Positions 38,001-46,222 of a stretch of DNA of 64,000 nucleotides are shown here, piece by piece. The DNA is from Octopus vulgaris (taxonomy: Eukaryota). Every line of letters begins with the position of its first letter. Position 1 is the stretch's first letter. The position numbers were made by a program. Location: the NCBI GenBank assembly GCA_951406725.2, contig OX597823.1, positions 38,936,001 through 39,000,000 of the forward strand, in the 5' to 3' direction.

Positions 38001-41000
38001 CATCTGGTATCTCATATAGAAACCTAGCAGGATGTCGAACAATTGCAGGTCCTTGAAAACCAGACTATTGCAGTACTGTATTCTTATTTTAGATGGGGAA
38101 GATGAGATCTTTGGTATGGTGCAGTGGCGTCCAGTTCGAGGATTGGTATAGCTGTCAATTCCAAAATGGGGAGCTAAACTCTCCAAGATCTTCCAGATAT
38201 ATATCACAGCATATCTCTCTTGTCTTCTCTCCAGGGAATAGAGACTCAGCTCCTTTTGCCTATCTTTTGCATTGAGTCAATTTTCATTGTGTATTCATGC
38301 TGAAATTTTTCAAGTTCCACAGTTTGTTTCACACTGTCTGGCAGCTGAGAAATGAAGTCCTCCCTTTTCCTGGTTCTGAATGTCTTCAGAATTCATCCAG
38401 CCTCTCACCTGCAGTGTTGCCATCTTGGTAATATGCACATGGAATGTTGCATCATTGCTCACGTGAACCCCCAGGTCATGCACTGACTCTGACTCTGGGA
38501 TCATATTACTTTCTGGTCCAGCATATTCCAATTTTAGCCTGGTGTTGGACCGATAATGGAGTGCTTGAAATTTCATAGTATTGAACTGCCTGTTATTTTT
38601 GTTAGCCCATGTGAATATTTCATTCAGGTCTTTCTGCAGTTTTATGATGTCCTTTGGGTTTCTAACTGCCTGTGATACTTATGTATCGTCAGCATAACTG
38701 GGGAAATTGGCTGTCAGTATGACAGTAGGGTGTATATATATATATATATATATTTATTATATAGAAGGAGCTTCTACAGGACTAGTACTGTTTCATTCAA
38801 GAGAAATCTTCAGGAAGCTATTTAACAAGAATTGTATTAGCATTTATACATTTAGGCAGGTTTAAGGGAGTGGTGGTGGGGGACTTTTTGGGGGTAGGCA
38901 TAGCGCAAAATATCATACTTGGGGGAGTGGTCAAGGAGTCAGTGGTAAGTTAGATGAAAGAATAGATAAATAAAAAAAAAAATAGATAAATAAAAAAATA
39001 AAAAAAAAAAAATAAAAAAATAAAAAAATAAAAATGAAAAATAAAAAGATAAAATAAAAGAATAAAAAAATAAAAAATATAAAAAATATATAAAAAATAT
39101 ATATAAAAAATATATATAAAAAAAATATTATCTTTTTATTTTTCATTTTTATTTTTTTATTTTTTTATTTTTTTATTTATCTATTTTTTTATTTATCTAT
39201 TCTTTCATCTAACTTACCACTGACTCCTTGACCACTCCCCAAGTATGATATTTTGCGCTATGCCTACCCCCAAAAAGTCCCCCACCACCACTCCCTTAAA
39301 CCTGCCTAAATGTATAAATGCTAATACAATTCTTGTTAAATAGCTTCCTGAAGATTTCTCTTGAATGAAACAGTACTAGTCCTGTAGAAGCTCCTTCTAT
39401 ATAATAAATTAATTTTACTCTGCTATGTATTGAGTACCTTACTTACTGTGGTTAACCCCGAATCAACCCGGGACCTACACATCTTAGCACACCCTAGTGC
39501 CCTTATAACCATCACCAAGAAAAATGCTGACAAGAATCGACCTCGACACTTCCCTGAAGAACATTACTATCCCACCAAGGAAACAGTACCAAAAAGCCCT
39601 CATTAGACGGACTGATGAGTTCATCAAAAGAATTCGATGGAGATCTTTCTTCTTCGACAACCCTGATGTAGCATCTACCAGTAATGATAAGTACGGCTTC
39701 AAATCAAATAAGGCCCCTCCTACCAACAGCCTACTTGAACCGTTTGAAGAAGACCTCTTCCTCATGATAAAAAACATCAAATCCAGGAGAGTCAACTTAC
39801 CTTTCCAAACGGAACTGAATGCGAAGCTTTCGAAAATGAAAAGCTCCCAGAACCTCTATGTCCCTTCGGACAAGACAAAAAATATTTACGCGGTGACTCC
39901 GGATACCTATAATAGACTAGCCGATAACGCCATCACAGCTAAATACAAGAAAGTAGACGACGTAGCGCTAACTGAAACCAACTTGGCCGGGAAAGAGATT
40001 GCCACCTCCCTTAAAATCGACGACCGAACAGAACCCCTGAGGGTGAAGTCCCCACACTTCACCCTGAAAGACCACAAAGACCATTTCGAAAATAAACCGT
40101 CGGTCCGTTTGATTAACCCAACCAAGTCTGACATCGGATCCGTCAGCAAGAAGATCTTGGACAGGATTTTACCAAAAATGCGTGAAGCTTCACCCCTTCC
40201 ACTCTGGAATAGGACCTCCGAGGCAATAACTTGGTTCCGGGATTTACCAGATAAAAGCAACACCCGATTCCTACAACTGGATATCGAGGATTACTACGCC
40301 TCTATATCGGAGAGCTTGCTGATCGATGCGATTAACTTCGCCAGGAGGTCCTCCACCATCACCGAGGCCGAGCAAGATGTGATCCTCCACGCACGTAAGA
40401 CTTTTCTTTTCTATGACGGATCCCACTGGATCAACAAAAAATCTGTGACCCCCTTCGACGTCAGCATGGGTGCTAACGACTCTGCTGAAATAAGTGACCT
40501 AGTGGGCCTTTTCATCCTCCATAGGCTGAAAACCCTATTCACAGGCCTCTCCGGTGGTCTTTACCGAGATGACGGCCTTTTCGCCCTCCACAATATAAAC
40601 CCCAGGACCACGGATGGGTTCCGGAAAAATCTTCACACCTTCTTTAAAAACTTAGGCCTTAGGATTACCCTAGAATCCAACTTAACTAAGGCTAACTTCC
40701 TAGATGTCACCCTCGACTTAAAAACCTCACTTTATTACCCGTACCACAAACCAAATGAATCCCTTAGATATATAGATATCAATTCCAACCACCCCAGAAA
40801 TATATTAGATAACCTAGTAAAAAGTGTCTCAATTAGAATCTCTAGCCTGTCCGCCACGGAAGATATCTTTAAGGCCGCAGCCCCCTATTACAACGAGGCC
40901 CTGGCCCGCAGTGGTTTTAAAGATAAGATTACCTACACTAGTATAGCCCCACGCCAACCCAGGAAAAATAGACGAAGACACATTAGCTGGTACAACCCCC

Positions 41001-41913
41001 CTTCAACCGTGAGGTCGCTACACCTGTAGCTAAGATCTTTTTCACTCTCCTACAGAAACACTTCCCCACCCAACATAAGTACTACACTATCCTAAATAAG
41101 AACACTATTAGACTCTCCTACTCTACCACGCCCAACCTAGCCAGGAACCTAGCCAACAACAATGTGAAAAAACTTAACATATCTACTTTCTCCGGGGCCC
41201 ATCCAACGTCCGATAGCAATTGCAACTGCCATGATAAAACCACCTGCCCCCTCAACAACAACTGCCTACAGAGGGACCTAGTATATAAATGCGAGGTAAG
41301 ATCAGGCCTTGACGATAAAAGTAAATCCTACATTGGAATGACGTCAAACAGCTTTAAGACCCGCTGGTATGCACATACACACTCGTTCCGGCGACAGGAT
41401 AAATCCAACCAAACTACCCTCGCCGCCCACATCTGGTACCTTAAAAGGAACTCAATCCCCTTCAAGACCAAGTGGAAACTACTACAGAAGGCGCGCTCGT
41501 ACACAGGAGGACATACCTGCTGTGACCTATGCATATCAGAGAGCCTAGAGATTTTGGTCGCCAAAGGCCCTCTCCTTAACAAATTTTCAGAACACTCCCC
41601 AAATTGTATGCATAAGAAGTATGCGAACTACAAGAACTATAGACCTACCCGGCAACCTGATTGATGACAACCCCCCCCCCTACAACCACCCCCCCTACAA
41701 CCCCCCCCCCCCAACCCCACTGTTCCCCTAGCACCCCCGATTACCTTTTCTCCTAAGACCTTTCACATATTATATGTGCACGCTTGTATATGTGTATCGT
41801 ATGTATGTATGTATATATGTATAGAAATGCATGGGTACAGTAGGAATATACGCATGTATTATGTGTGTGTGTGTGTATGTATGCATGTAAAAAAATATAT
41901 ATGTATATATATT

Positions 41914-41962
<49 letters not shown>

Positions 41963-43647: not shown

Positions 43648-44100
43648 GGTATGTATCTGTATGTAGGAGTATATATGTGTGTGTGTGTATGTATGTGCGG
43701 GTATATATATATATATGTATATTTATTGGTGTATATGTATAGACTAGCCTCCTAAAGTGTAGACACGAATCTGTAGGTACGAGTACGTATGTGTATATAC
43801 GTGAACGTATGTAGATGTTTGTATGTATGAATATAACGCGTGCGTACGTGTATGTGTATGAGTGTACGAATGGGTGAATGTACGTGCTAATGAGTGTGCG
43901 TGCGGGAATGAGTACTTGCCTTCTAGTAGACAGACAAATGGACAGGCAGCCACTGCCAGGATTCTTAGCCCTAGCGATCAAAGATAACAAAAGTAATAAA
44001 TGAAGATAATAAAATTAAAATTAGGGATTGGGCCTGTATTGGATTGTATATATATATATGTATATGTAAATTTGTATGTATGTATGTGTGTATGTGTAGG

Positions 44101-44157
<57 letters not shown>

Positions 44158-46222
44158 ATATATATGTGTATGTGTGTATGTGTGTGTAGATACGTATACA
44201 TGTGTGTATAGGTATAAGTGAGAATCTCCTTATTTACCTATAACTCTATCCCCCTTTTTTTATATATATATTTTTTTATATATATATTTTATATATATAT
44301 TTTTTTTTTTTTTTTATATATATATTTTTTATATATATTTTTTATATATTTTTTATATTTTTTATTTTTTTATTTTATTTTATTTTATCTTTTTATTTTT
44401 ATTTTTTTATTTTTTTATTTTTTATTTTTTTATTTATCTTTTTTTTTTTATTTATCTATTCTTTCATCTAACTTACCACTGACTCCTTGACCACTCCCCC
44501 AAGTATGATATTTTGCGCTATGCCTACCCCCAAAAAGTCCCCCACCACCACTCCCTTAAACCTGCCTAAATGTATAAATGCTAATACAATTCTTGTTAAA
44601 TAGCTTCCTGAAGATTTCTCTTGAATGAAACAGTACTAGTCCTGTAGAAGCTCCTTCTATATAATAAATTAATTTTACTCTGCTATGTATTGAGTACCTT
44701 ACTTACTGTGGTTAACCCCGAATCAACCCGGGACCTACATATATATATATATATATATATCATATATTAATTTTCAGACTGCTCACTCCTACCCCATATA
44801 TTTAAGTATAATTCTTTTTAAAAAAAAGTACATAAAAATATGAAAGAAAACAGAATTGGTAGTAAAAAGCATAACACTGTTTAAATATGTAGGGGTAATA
44901 TCTAGAGGCTAGAAAAAATGCTTATATATATATATATATATATACACACACATATATATATATCACTAGGTTATATTTACAGATATAAAACAATATATTT
45001 TCAATTTGAAATGCTGCAATGAAAAAGACAGGAGATAAATAAATGTAAGAGAAAAAAGAGACAAAAACCAGAAACTGAAGAAAATTGCAATACAGACCTA
45101 TAGAGTGAGTCATCAATTTCTGTATCCATTGACATGGTTAATTTATATCGGGAGGGACTTTATTTGTAGCTGCAGACAATTAGAAATAAATACAGGAAAC
45201 CTGTTTGGAGAAACAAAATACAGAAATCCATCATCATCATCATCATTATTATTATTATTATTATTACTATTATTATTATCATTAAGGTGACAAGCTGGCA
45301 GAATCGTTAGCACACCAGGCAAAATGCTTAGTGACATTTCGTCCATCTCCGTGTTTTGAGTTCAAATTCCGCTGAGGTCTTTCACAGATAAACACTGAGA
45401 TCGATGTAATCAACTAGTACCCTCCCACAAATTTTCAGGCTTTGTGCCTTTAGTAGAACAGATTATTATTACTTAGTAGTCATATTTTTATTGTCTGCTT
45501 TCACTGTACTACCAAGCACAGCTCTGTGTGTCTTGAGTATATGCTGCAGTTAGTCATGGTGTTGTTATTTTTATTGTATTGGAACTGTTCTACATAAGAT
45601 GTGTGCAGAGCCTATCAGTGTTATTTCATGTTATAGATATATATATACGTATGTATGTATATATGGTTGTATTTGTAAGTCTTGGAGTTTCAATTATGTA
45701 TACTGTTTTTTCACCATACCTAAAAAACCTATTATCATGGTGGTTGTTTCTGTCTTCATGGTCCCCATACAGGTTTTCTCTATTTCCAGATCTTTGTATT
45801 TCAATAATGCTTTCCATCTCCTTTAGAGATACATTGTCATCTATTAAGACTAATATGTCAATTAGGAAACTTTTCTTTCCTTGTCCTCCTTGACTACAAT
45901 ATCTGGTCAATTAACCTTCATATTTTAGATTATAGTTGCTTTGTCATTTTCAGAACTTCTCTAAGGTATTTCTACACCATGTCTTTGCTGCTGCTGCTGC
46001 TGTTATTATTAAGGCAGCGAGCTGACAGAATCATTAGCACACCAACCAAATTGCTTAGTGGCATTTTGTCTGTCGTTATATTTTGAGTTCAAATTCCCAG
46101 GTCAACATTGCCTTTCATCTTTTCATGGTTGATAAAATAAGTACCAGTTGAACAGTGGGATCAATGTAATCAACTATACCCTTCCTCTGAAAATTGTTGG
46201 CCTTGTGCTTCCAGTAGAAAGG

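What the first reader, a model, noticed from the sequence alone, without database searches (positions are those of the whole stretch)
38752..44739. Young, nearly intact Penelope-like element with Hydra-clade signature
Seen: RT followed by a C-terminal GIY-YIG, with linker CNCHDKTTC (CxCx5C) and KWK and CDLC in the nuclease. Pseudo-LTR copies are near-identical and the insertion is in (TA)n. Known: PLEs are telomerase-related retroelements with pseudo-LTRs, and as I recall the recently defined Hydra clade has exactly these motifs and a (TA)n preference. Inference: this is a recently active Hydra-clade family in a probable cephalopod, about twice the ~3 kb I recall for the clade.
Basis: partly seen in the sequence, partly recalled or inferred. 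Interest (0 to 1): 0.8.

Follow-up and report, generated by a model that had tools for sequence, protein, structure and literature searches.

The report
Young Hydra-type Penelope retroelement in octopus
This is one copy of a known kind of jumping gene (a Hydra-clade Penelope-like retroelement) in an octopus-like genome; it is young and nearly complete, and its extra length is non-coding repeat DNA, so it is a well-preserved example, not a new kind of element.

Summary
Window 38752-44739 is a Penelope-like element (PLE) flanked by (TA)n. It has one 713-codon reading frame, RT then GIY-YIG nuclease, broken once by a 1-nt shift in a C6 run (40996-41001).

- **Fold:** the RT model matches telomerase RT best. 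The nuclease model's top matches are GIY-YIG enzymes, but weakly.
- **Clade:** most Hydra-clade diagnostics listed by Craig et al. 2021 (PMC8557442) are present. The RT part is 44% identical to a stored protein that matches their Hydra-2_Amil. No tree with other PLE clades was possible.
- **Host and activity:** seven Octopus vulgaris annotated proteins are fragments of the same family, 85-94% identical over whole rows and 116-120 of 121 residues for four of them. This supports a cephalopod host and a multi-copy young family.
- **Length:** the "double" length is not extra coding. It is 728 bp of upstream partial copies (one inverted) plus about 2.4 kb of degenerate TA/TG microsatellite and two unique islands between the stop codon and the 3' repeat.

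Whether that spacer is part of the mobile unit could not be tested without the host genome. Hydra was already described in Octopus bimaculoides, so novelty is low.

The parts
38733..38751 (.). left flanking (TA)n, target microsatellite
   Evidence: read
38752..39125 (-). inverted, 5'-truncated partial copy of the element's 3' region. Its outer end stops at ...TATATAATAAAT, 70 nt short of the unit's 3' end.
   Evidence: I1, I2; 95.5% over 374 columns to 44310-44669
38769..38819 (-). hammerhead-like motif, copy in the inverted arm
   Evidence: descriptor script
39126..39479 (+). direct, 5'-truncated upstream partial copy (upstream pseudo-LTR): T-rich tract plus complex block ending ...GGGACCTACA
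   Evidence: D8; 97.5% over 359 columns to 44382-44739
39342..39392 (+). hammerhead-like motif: stem I 6 bp, CTGAAGA core, stem II 3 bp, GAA, stem III 4 bp with an 8-nt loop, cleavage-site A at 39386
   Evidence: 3 hits in the window, all in the repeat copies; 100 shuffles average 0.03. Not found by Rfam. Fold not special, z -0.17.
39480..39523 (+). start of the full unit and 44-nt leader before the ATG
   Evidence: junction ...CCTACA|CATCTTAGC read
39524..41001 (+). RT part of the ORF (493 codons; YRDD at 40562-40573; DKT at residues 116-118)
40996..41001 (+). C6 homopolymer where the frame shifts by -1 (...WYNPP|FNREV...)
41002..41664 (+). linker plus GIY-YIG nuclease part in the -1 frame (220 codons plus stop): CNCHDKTTC 41221-41247, Y..YIG, R, H, CDLC 41521-41532, E 41539-41541, N 41578-41580, CMH 41605-41613
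41665..41784 (+). C-rich 3' UTR start ((ACAACCCCCCCCCCT) x3.5 at 41667-41718)
41785..44197 (.). spacer: degenerate TA/TG microsatellites (41785-42100, 42321-43741, 44047-44197) with two unique islands (42100-42320, 43742-44040). Either part of the mobile unit or host DNA between two insertions.
44256..44739 (+). downstream pseudo-LTR: T-rich tract plus complex block ending ...GGGACCTACA
44602..44652 (+). hammerhead-like motif, downstream copy
44740..44761 (.). right flanking (TA)n

Best explanation
This is a young insertion of a Hydra-clade Penelope-like retroelement in the genome of an Octopus (O. vulgaris or a close relative).

Mechanism, inferred from what is established for PLEs. The single ORF makes a telomerase-related reverse transcriptase fused to a GIY-YIG nuclease. 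The nuclease, with its CxCx5C linker, nicks (TA)n. The RNA is copied from its 3' end (...GGGACCUACA) by target-primed reverse transcription. A jump to the 3' end of a second RNA gives the upstream direct partial copy, the pseudo-LTR. A second priming by the other (TA)n strand at the internal UAUAUAAUAAAU site gives the inverted partial copy. A hammerhead-like motif sits in each repeat copy.

This copy is 1 nt out of frame between RT and nuclease. It is therefore either dead or mis-assembled at a homopolymer.

I take the whole 39480-44739 (5,260 bp) as one reverse-transcribed unit whose 3' UTR carries about 2.4 kb of microsatellite and unique DNA. My own odds for this sub-claim are about 0.5.
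For: Shown:
- ORF anatomy and the frameshift.
- RT fold, best match TERT.
- All 59 RT-side and 25 EN-side invariant residues of the family are kept.
- Hydra diagnostics from PMC8557442 section 11: DKT, CxCx5C, CxxC...E...N...CxH. There is no Cys between residues 98 and 172 of the EN piece, so no CCHH.
- (TA)n on both flanks.
- RT 44% identical (E 1e-142) and EN 36% (E 7e-44) to P0053. P0053 carries a Hydra-2_Amil motif and by eye is nearly identical to the Hydra-2_Amil ORF printed.
- Seven O. vulgaris proteins on 7 contigs are 85-94% identical in whole-row identity. By my count on the shared 121 residues, the four closest are 116-120 of 121 (96-99%).
- 0 substitutions in the complex repeat blocks.
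- ORF CpG o/e 0.78 against a window median of 0.17.
- Hammerhead descriptor: 3 of 3 window hits lie in the repeat copies, against 0.03 expected.

For the single-unit reading:
- The upstream partial copy and the far 3' end stop at the same base.
- Both outer flanks are pure (TA)n, while the inner spacer edges are degenerate.
- The ORF-bearing copy needs a 3' end for target-primed synthesis.
- The same inverted-5'-copy architecture is recorded for the Hydra family Penelope-13_HM.
Against: - Pfam finds neither domain in the window's ORF. The PDB sequence profile search finds no polymerase or nuclease (one chance-level match at E 0.13).
- The nuclease fold matches are all above E 0.1.
- Rfam finds no hammerhead even at E<=10 on 271 nt. 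Stem II is only 3 bp, and the fold energy is ordinary. I wrote the descriptor after seeing the motif, and the three hits are copies of one sequence.
- The N-terminal motif is RWR, not RWK.
- No tree with other PLE clades was built. In the unrooted tree of 32 rows, the window with P0001 and P0002 sits apart from the other 29 rows, which include the Hydra-2_Amil-like row (100/100). The group could therefore be sister to Hydra rather than inside it.
- Against the single unit: the 27 Hydra families in Craig's table are 1.1-3.0 kb. Island 1 looks host-like (GC 28.5%, no CpG). No second copy in the window shows the spacer.
- All 7 octopus protein fragments are broken, so an active master is not shown.
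Confidence: 0.85

Rival explanations
1. Two separate insertions of the same family lie in one microsatellite-rich locus. The left one (38752 to about 41780) was primed internally at the UA-rich stretch 41766-41778 and so lacks the 3' end. The right one is a 5'-truncated fragment of about 0.5 kb (about 44213-44739). The 2.4 kb between them is host DNA, and the true unit is about 2.8 kb.
For: - Clade-typical lengths are 1.1-3.0 kb.
- The spacer holds unique islands, and island 1 has host-like composition.
- The inverted copy shows that this family can prime at an internal UA-rich site.
- Each putative insertion is bordered by TA/TG repeats.
Against: - It needs two same-orientation, sequence-identical insertions within 2.5 kb, plus a 3'-truncated full-length copy.
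- The outer flanks are pure (TA)n, but the inner borders are degenerate.
- The boundary comparison gave no direct-strand match and only a weak reverse-complement one (score 20; 4 of 300 shuffles as good).
Confidence: 0.3
2. The frameshift at 40996-41001 is an assembly error at a homopolymer, so this copy is in fact intact and potentially autonomous.
For: - The shift is 1 nt in a C run, and no residue is lost.
- The repeat copies also differ by C4 against C5 and in T runs.
- Four O. vulgaris proteins on four contigs share one frameshift at another C run.
- The O. vulgaris assembly was built from Nanopore and 10x reads (passage of PMC13282606).
Against: It is not shown that the window comes from that assembly. 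Real 1-nt deletions in homopolymers are also common. A shared frameshift could equally mark copies of a defective master.
Confidence: 0.35
3. The shift is a programmed -1 ribosomal frameshift at C CCC CCU that sets the RT:nuclease ratio.
For: The heptamer fits the X XXY YYZ form, and a -1 slip gives exactly the family consensus NPPF.
Against: - 30 of the 31 relatives in A1 read through this point in one frame. The 31st (P0085) lacks the first P of NPP and its frame was not inspected.
- This includes the two closest relatives, P0001 and P0002.
- The downstream fold is ordinary: z -1.04, and 34 of 200 shuffles fold as well.
Confidence: 0.03
4. It belongs to another C-terminal-nuclease PLE clade (Nematis, Neptune or Penelope/Poseidon), not Hydra.
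For: No tree with those clades was run. Nematis also has a linker and a (TA)n preference, according to the paper.
Against: - The CCHH motif universal to those clades is absent.
- The linker is CxCx5C, not CX2-5CxxC, and the motif is DKT, not DKG.
- There is full-length 36-44% identity to a Hydra-2_Amil-like protein.
- By eye the ORF is collinear with four Hydra ORFs in the paper's File S4.
Confidence: 0.03

Closest known systems
Hydra-1_Obim (Octopus bimaculoides; Craig et al. 2021, PMC8557442, File S1/S2/S4)
   Same: Same clade, same host genus, (TA)n preference, single RT-GIY-YIG ORF, and a hammerhead with a CTGAAGA...GAA core near the 3' end.
   Different: It is a different family.
- Only the first 400 residues of Hydra-1_Obim were visible. 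By eye they are clearly homologous but far from identical; identity was not computed.
- It has RMRWK and KCRLINPAKSE where the window has RIRWR and SVRLINPTKSD.
- Its hammerhead stems differ throughout.
- It is listed as 2,507 bp with no pseudo-LTR. Here the unit as delimited is 5,260 bp, with direct and inverted partial copies.
Hydra-2_Amil (Acropora millepora), represented by stored protein P0053
   Same: Collinear over the whole protein: RT 217/497 identical, EN 74/206 identical. All family-invariant residues are shared.
   Different: It is a cnidarian family, on the other side of the 100/100 split in the 32-row tree. It has one unbroken frame.
Penelope-13_HM (Hydra magnipapillata, Repbase; listed in Craig et al. 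File S1)
   Same: [quoted passage not shown]
   Different: I saw only the table entry, and no sequence was compared. It is 3,045 bp.
L1 twin priming and 3' transduction (recalled from the LINE-1 literature; no call)
   Same: These are working analogies: inversion by a second priming event, and carrying non-element DNA between the ORF and a downstream 3' end.
   Different: A different retroelement class with an APE nuclease and a poly(A) tail. Neither process has been shown for PLEs here.

Membership tests
Penelope-like elements (PLE) | RT most closely related to telomerase RT | tested here: met
   Foldseek of the RT model: rank 1 is TERT 3du5_A (E 1.5e-9). Nine of the 18 best listed rows are telomerases, the rest are DRT or retron RTs. 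This is fold similarity, not a phylogeny.
Penelope-like elements (PLE) | GIY-YIG nuclease fused to the RT | tested here: met
   - Y95, Y110-I-G112, R121, H125, E180 and N193 are invariant in 30 sequences.
- Relative P0087 passes Pfam GIY-YIG (26.1 bits against 22.6) at the aligned place.
- The top fold hits are T4 EndoII, Hpy188I and I-TevI, but all at E>=0.12.
- The window's own piece has no Pfam hit.
Penelope-like elements (PLE) | pseudo-LTRs from partial tandem copies, often with an inverted 5' copy | tested here: met
Hydra clade (Craig et al. 2021) | nuclease at the C-terminus, single ORF | tested here: met
   The frame is broken once by 1 nt.
Hydra clade (Craig et al. 2021) | N-terminal RWK motif | tested here: inconclusive
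   R38 and W39 are invariant. The third residue is K in the majority but R in the window, P0001 and P0002.
Hydra clade (Craig et al. 2021) | DKG motif changed to DKT | tested here: met
   SDKT at residues 115-118. K117 and T118 are invariant.
Hydra clade (Craig et al. 2021) | linker CxCX5C instead of CX2-5CxxC | tested here: met
   CNCHDKTTC. C74, N75, C76 and C82 are invariant.
Hydra clade (Craig et al. 2021) | no CCHH motif in the nuclease | tested here: met
   No Cys between residues 98 and 172 of the EN piece (translation).
Hydra clade (Craig et al. 2021) | [quoted passage not shown] | tested here: met
   C174-D-L-C177, E180, N193, C202-M-H204, all invariant.
Hydra clade (Craig et al. 2021) | canonical hammerhead ribozyme | tested here: inconclusive
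   - The descriptor with stems finds it in all 3 repeat copies and nowhere else, against 0.03 expected.
- The layout CTGAAGAT...TGAAAC is as in the paper's File S2.
- Rfam finds none, stem II is 3 bp, and the fold z-score is -0.17.
- The paper's core-only descriptor gives 5 hits against 1.8 expected.
- Cleavage was not tested.
Hydra clade (Craig et al. 2021) | insertion into (TA)n | tested here: met
Hydra clade (Craig et al. 2021) | generally short, <3 kb | tested here: not met
   The unit as delimited by its repeats is 5,260 bp. Without the spacer it would be about 2.8 kb. The paper words this as a tendency, not a rule.
Hydra clade (Craig et al. 2021) | RT groups with Hydra references apart from other PLE clades | not tested
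I did not type the paper's sequences into tools. Only indirect evidence exists: 44% identity to the Hydra-2_Amil-like P0053.
Hydra clade (Craig et al. 2021) | no IFD and no N-terminal CxC domain | not tested
   Not examined specifically.

The most novel reading that the evidence does not exclude
The 5,260-bp unit is a mobile variant. A Hydra-clade element doubled its length by carrying about 2.4 kb of host microsatellite and unique DNA between its ORF and a downstream 3' fragment, a PLE counterpart of LINE 3' transduction. It still retrotransposed, giving this copy with fresh pseudo-LTRs.

A second point is that four dispersed octopus copies share one frameshift. This could mean that a defective master was amplified in trans.
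Probability: 0.25. Interest if true: 0.4.

Novelty: new member of a known kind. Interest (0 to 1): 0.2.

Why it matters
It gives a cleanly delimited, young Hydra-clade copy in a cephalopod, with both termini, a direct and an inverted partial copy, and a hammerhead-like motif. The only cephalopod Hydra family in print (Hydra-1_Obim) was listed without a pseudo-LTR.

It is useful for curating octopus repeat libraries and for working out how PLEs prime on (TA)n. The internal UA-rich priming site and the exact ...CCTACA 3' end are both visible here.

It does not change what is known about PLE biology.

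Tried and rejected
- **Pfam** on both ORF pieces: nothing relevant; the RT piece had no hit and the EN piece only a sub-threshold VtrA_C match (17.5 bits, cut-off 27).
- **PDB sequence search** with a 32-row profile: only a chance hit at E 0.13.
- **Rfam:** no hammerhead in 11 kb at E<=1 or in 271 nt at E<=10. The 74 hits are microRNA, snoRNA and sRNA models matching TA/TG repeats, all below their gathering scores. I take them as low-complexity artefacts.
- **Hammerhead fold energy:** not better than shuffles.
- **Self-BLAST of the window:** no further copy of the ORF, the repeat or the spacer islands, so copy number and spacer status cannot be read from the window.
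- **Other window ORFs:** Pfam on 19 of the 39 ORFs of 110 aa or more found only Tc1/mariner pieces. I left out the 20 that lie inside the element or are low-complexity. No other PLE was available as an outgroup.
- **Search with the Tc1 ORF** to name the host: no informative names.
- **Protein atlas:** only "hypothetical protein" clusters carrying HTH_animal, DUF8422 or RVT_1 labels.
- **Bacterial promoter/terminator scan:** irrelevant to a eukaryotic element and should not have been run.
- **Spacer-boundary comparison** for target duplications or terminal inverted repeats: nothing convincing.
- **CpG o/e of the spacer:** uninformative, because C is rare in TG/TA repeats.
- **Programmed frameshift:** rejected.
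- **Motif counts in the paper's supplement**: supportive only, because its sequences are cut at 400 characters.

Full report
**What is at the coordinates**

On the + strand there are two adjacent stop-to-stop ORFs, 39509-41029 (506 aa) and 40987-41664 (225 aa). An ATG lies at 39524.

The two ORFs overlap at a C6 run (40996-41001). Frame 1 reads ...WYNPP and the -1 frame reads PPFNREV.... Against relative P0053, the RT piece aligns up to residue 496 and the nuclease piece from residue 497. The break is therefore a clean 1-nt shift with no residue lost. The conceptual protein has 493 + 220 = 713 residues, which is normal for the family (relatives are mostly 700-740 aa).

**Repeat anatomy**

In order along the + strand:
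1. (TA)n, 38733-38751.
2. An inverted partial copy, 38752 to about 39125.
3. A direct partial copy, about 39126-39479.
4. The full unit, starting at 39480.
5. The ORF.
6. A C-rich tract, 41665-41784.
7. A spacer, 41785-44197.
8. A short unique stretch and a T-rich tract.
9. A complex block ending at 44739.
10. (TA)n, 44740-44761.

The complex block (39237-39479 = 44497-44739) has no substitution between the two direct copies. The inverted arm is 173/173 complementary to it. The three copies differ only in T-rich low-complexity stretches and in one C4/C5 run.

The upstream direct copy and the far 3' end both stop at ...GGGACCTACA. The inverted copy stops 70 nt earlier, at ...TATATAATAAAT, directly against (TA)n.

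**Are the domains real?**

Sequence libraries are nearly blind to this protein.
- Pfam gives nothing for the window's pieces.
- A 32-row profile finds no polymerase or nuclease in PDB sequences.
- Of 32 aligned sequences, one hits RVT_1 below its cut-off and one passes GIY-YIG.

Structure settles the RT.
- The AlphaFold model (pLDDT 90.2, pTM 0.86) matches Tribolium TERT best (E 1.5e-9).
- Other telomerases, DRT and retron RTs, group II intron RT and L1 ORF2p follow. In total 412 chains match at E<=0.001.

The nuclease is less certain.
- The model (pLDDT 82.8) has GIY-YIG enzymes at the top: T4 EndoII (E 0.12, probability 0.87-0.90), Hpy188I and I-TevI. None reaches E<=0.001.
- The invariant Y, YIG, R, H, E and N residues also support the assignment.
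- Taken together I accept a GIY-YIG nuclease, on moderate evidence.

**Clade**

Craig et al. 2021 (PMC8557442) define Hydra. I read section 11 in full, passages elsewhere, and part 2 plus passages of the supplement. Their features are:
- a C-terminal nuclease;
- RWK in the N-terminal region;
- DKT instead of DKG;
- no CCHH;
- a CxCX5C linker;
- CxxC and CxH around the catalytic E and N;
- canonical hammerheads;
- insertion into (TA)n;
- length generally under 3 kb.

The window has DKT, CxCx5C, CDLC...E...N...CMH and (TA)n flanks. It has no cysteine where CCHH would lie. It has RWR rather than RWK.

By eye its ORF is collinear with the Hydra-1_Amil, Hydra-2_Amil, Hydra-1_Obim and Hydra-1_Ajap ORFs printed (cut at 400 characters) in File S4.

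A short motif located stored protein P0053. By eye P0053 is almost identical to Hydra-2_Amil. The window is 44% identical to it over the RT (E 1e-142) and 36% over the nuclease (E 7e-44).

In a 32-row tree of relatives, with homologs cut to 520 residues and a midpoint root only, the window groups with P0001 and P0002 at 100/100. The other 29 rows, including P0053 and a jellyfish protein, lie across a 100/100 branch. The family therefore belongs to a distinct sub-lineage. Whether that lies inside Hydra or is sister to it stays open.

**Hammerhead**

A descriptor with the canonical core and three stems finds one 51-nt sequence three times in the 64-kb window: 39342-39392 (+), 44602-44652 (+) and 38769-38819 (-). 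These are exactly the three repeat copies. One hundred dinucleotide shuffles give 0.03 hits on average, and none with stem I of at least 6 bp and stem III of at least 4 bp. The layout (CTGAAGAT, stem II, TGAA-AC...) is that of the Hydra entries in File S2.

Against it:
- Rfam reports no hammerhead.
- Stem II has 3 pairs and loop III has 8 nt.
- The fold energy is ordinary (z -0.17).
- The paper's core-only descriptor is not significant here: 5 hits against 1.8 expected.
- I wrote the descriptor after seeing the motif.

I call this a probable but unproven ribozyme.

**Host and family activity**

The near-length search found 1,399 relatives among the 8,000 candidates scored, the best at 52% identity. 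The exhaustive search found 9,602 cluster representatives at E<=0.001 and 438 at E<=1e-30.

That search and the search among shorter proteins revealed near-identical fragments. Seven Octopus vulgaris annotated proteins on seven contigs of different length, six of them chromosome-scale, are 85-94% identical to the window in whole-row identity. By my count on the 121 residues they share with the window, four of them are 116-120 of 121 identical.

They fall into two subfamilies that differ at about 10% of residues. Four of them share one frameshift at a C run, reading ...REASP|FHSGIGPPRQ. All seven are broken.

This supports a cephalopod host and a multi-copy young family. It does not show an intact master. 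Named weaker hits come from corals, a sea anemone and a sea slug, in line with the clade's published range.

Two further signs of youth:
- There are no substitutions in the repeat copies. By my arithmetic this puts pairwise divergence below about 1.2% at 95%. On the scale quoted in PMC13282606 that is roughly under 2 My, barring gene conversion.
- ORF CpG o/e is 0.78 against a window median of 0.17.

**The extra length**

Of the 5,988 bp, 728 bp are the two upstream partial copies. About 2.4 kb (41785-44197) is degenerate TA/TG microsatellite with two unique islands, 42100-42320 and 43742-44040. No ORF other than repeat-translation artefacts lies there. The "double size" therefore adds no coding capacity.

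There are two readings.
- **(a) One reverse-transcribed unit of 5,260 bp.**
  - The upstream copy and the far end share the same 3' terminus.
  - The outer flanks are pure (TA)n.
  - The ORF copy needs a 3' end for target-primed synthesis.
- **(b) Two insertions in a repeat-rich locus, with host DNA between them.**
  - Hydra families in Craig's table are 1.1-3.0 kb.
  - Island 1 has host-like composition.
  - The inverted copy shows that internal UA-rich priming happens in this family.

I favour (a) at about 0.5 against 0.3. The rest goes to rearrangement or mis-assembly. The window holds no second copy to decide the matter, and no eukaryotic genome collection was available.

**Frameshift**

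It may be a real deletion or a homopolymer error. The repeat copies also differ at C and T runs. The O. vulgaris assembly is Nanopore-based (passage in PMC13282606). A programmed -1 shift is unlikely. The two closest relatives and 28 of the other 29 aligned relatives read through in one frame, and the downstream fold is ordinary.

**Novelty**

- Craig et al. already list Hydra-1_Obim from O. bimaculoides: 2,507 bp, (TA)n, "no pLTR".
- PMC13282606 (passages and supplement passages only) reports PLEs as 6.83% of the O. vulgaris genome in 190 families. It lists 31 families and 336 insertions as recently active. From its Table 1, by my arithmetic, the mean recent PLE insertion is about 5.4 kb, so this length is not unusual for octopus PLE annotations.
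- A 2026 preprint (10.64898/2026.07.22.740005, passages only) lists Hydra among eight PLE clades.
- Two literature searches found no paper on this particular family. I could not see the Zenodo library, Dfam or Repbase, where a consensus may already exist.

**Verdict**

This is a well-preserved new member, at family level, of a known clade in a host genus where that clade is already known.

Noticed in passing
window 37896-38678, minus strand: Two adjacent ORFs (126 and 122 aa) directly left of the (TA)n target. From memory they read like the C-terminal part of a non-LTR (LINE) reverse transcriptase. Pfam gave no hit.
   Followed up: partly
window 21768-22187 (-) and 59269-59847 (+): Tc1/mariner transposase fragments: HTH_48 at E 7.9e-11 and DDE_3 at E 2.1e-19. 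The DDE_3 ORF has 3,555 database relatives at E<=1e-20. Many of them are 75-85% identical and lie on long unnamed contigs.
   Followed up: partly
window 45276-45370 and 46003-46097: Two 95-nt direct repeats, 80% identical, each following an (ATT)n-type run (D9/D10). They look like copies of a short interspersed repeat. Not identified.
   Followed up: no
proteins P0362, P0557, P0558, P0559 (Octopus vulgaris): Four annotated proteins on four different contigs share the same frameshift at a C run and the same internal start. Either a defective master copy was amplified, or the assembly has a systematic homopolymer error.
   Followed up: partly
whole window: The host DNA is strongly CpG-depleted (median o/e 0.17 over 64 one-kb bins). 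The element ORF (0.78) and the bins at 56-59 kb around the Tc1 fragment (0.53-0.73) stand out.
   Followed up: partly
window 38752-39409: The inverted and direct partial copies form a near-perfect palindrome of about 330 nt per arm around an A-rich/T-rich centre (I2 and I17). This may be unstable in vivo and hard to assemble.
   Followed up: no
relatives P0001-P0120: Many relatives carry precomputed Pfam labels PF26215 (HTH_animal) and PF28514 (DUF8422). The local Pfam copy did not report either for these proteins. The RT of this clade is therefore filed in Pfam under names that do not say RT.
   Followed up: partly
window 41785-44197: Rfam microRNA models (mir-297, mir-466, mir-1277, mir-3149) score 25-51 bits on the TA/TG repeats, all below their gathering scores. 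These are low-complexity artefacts.
   Followed up: yes
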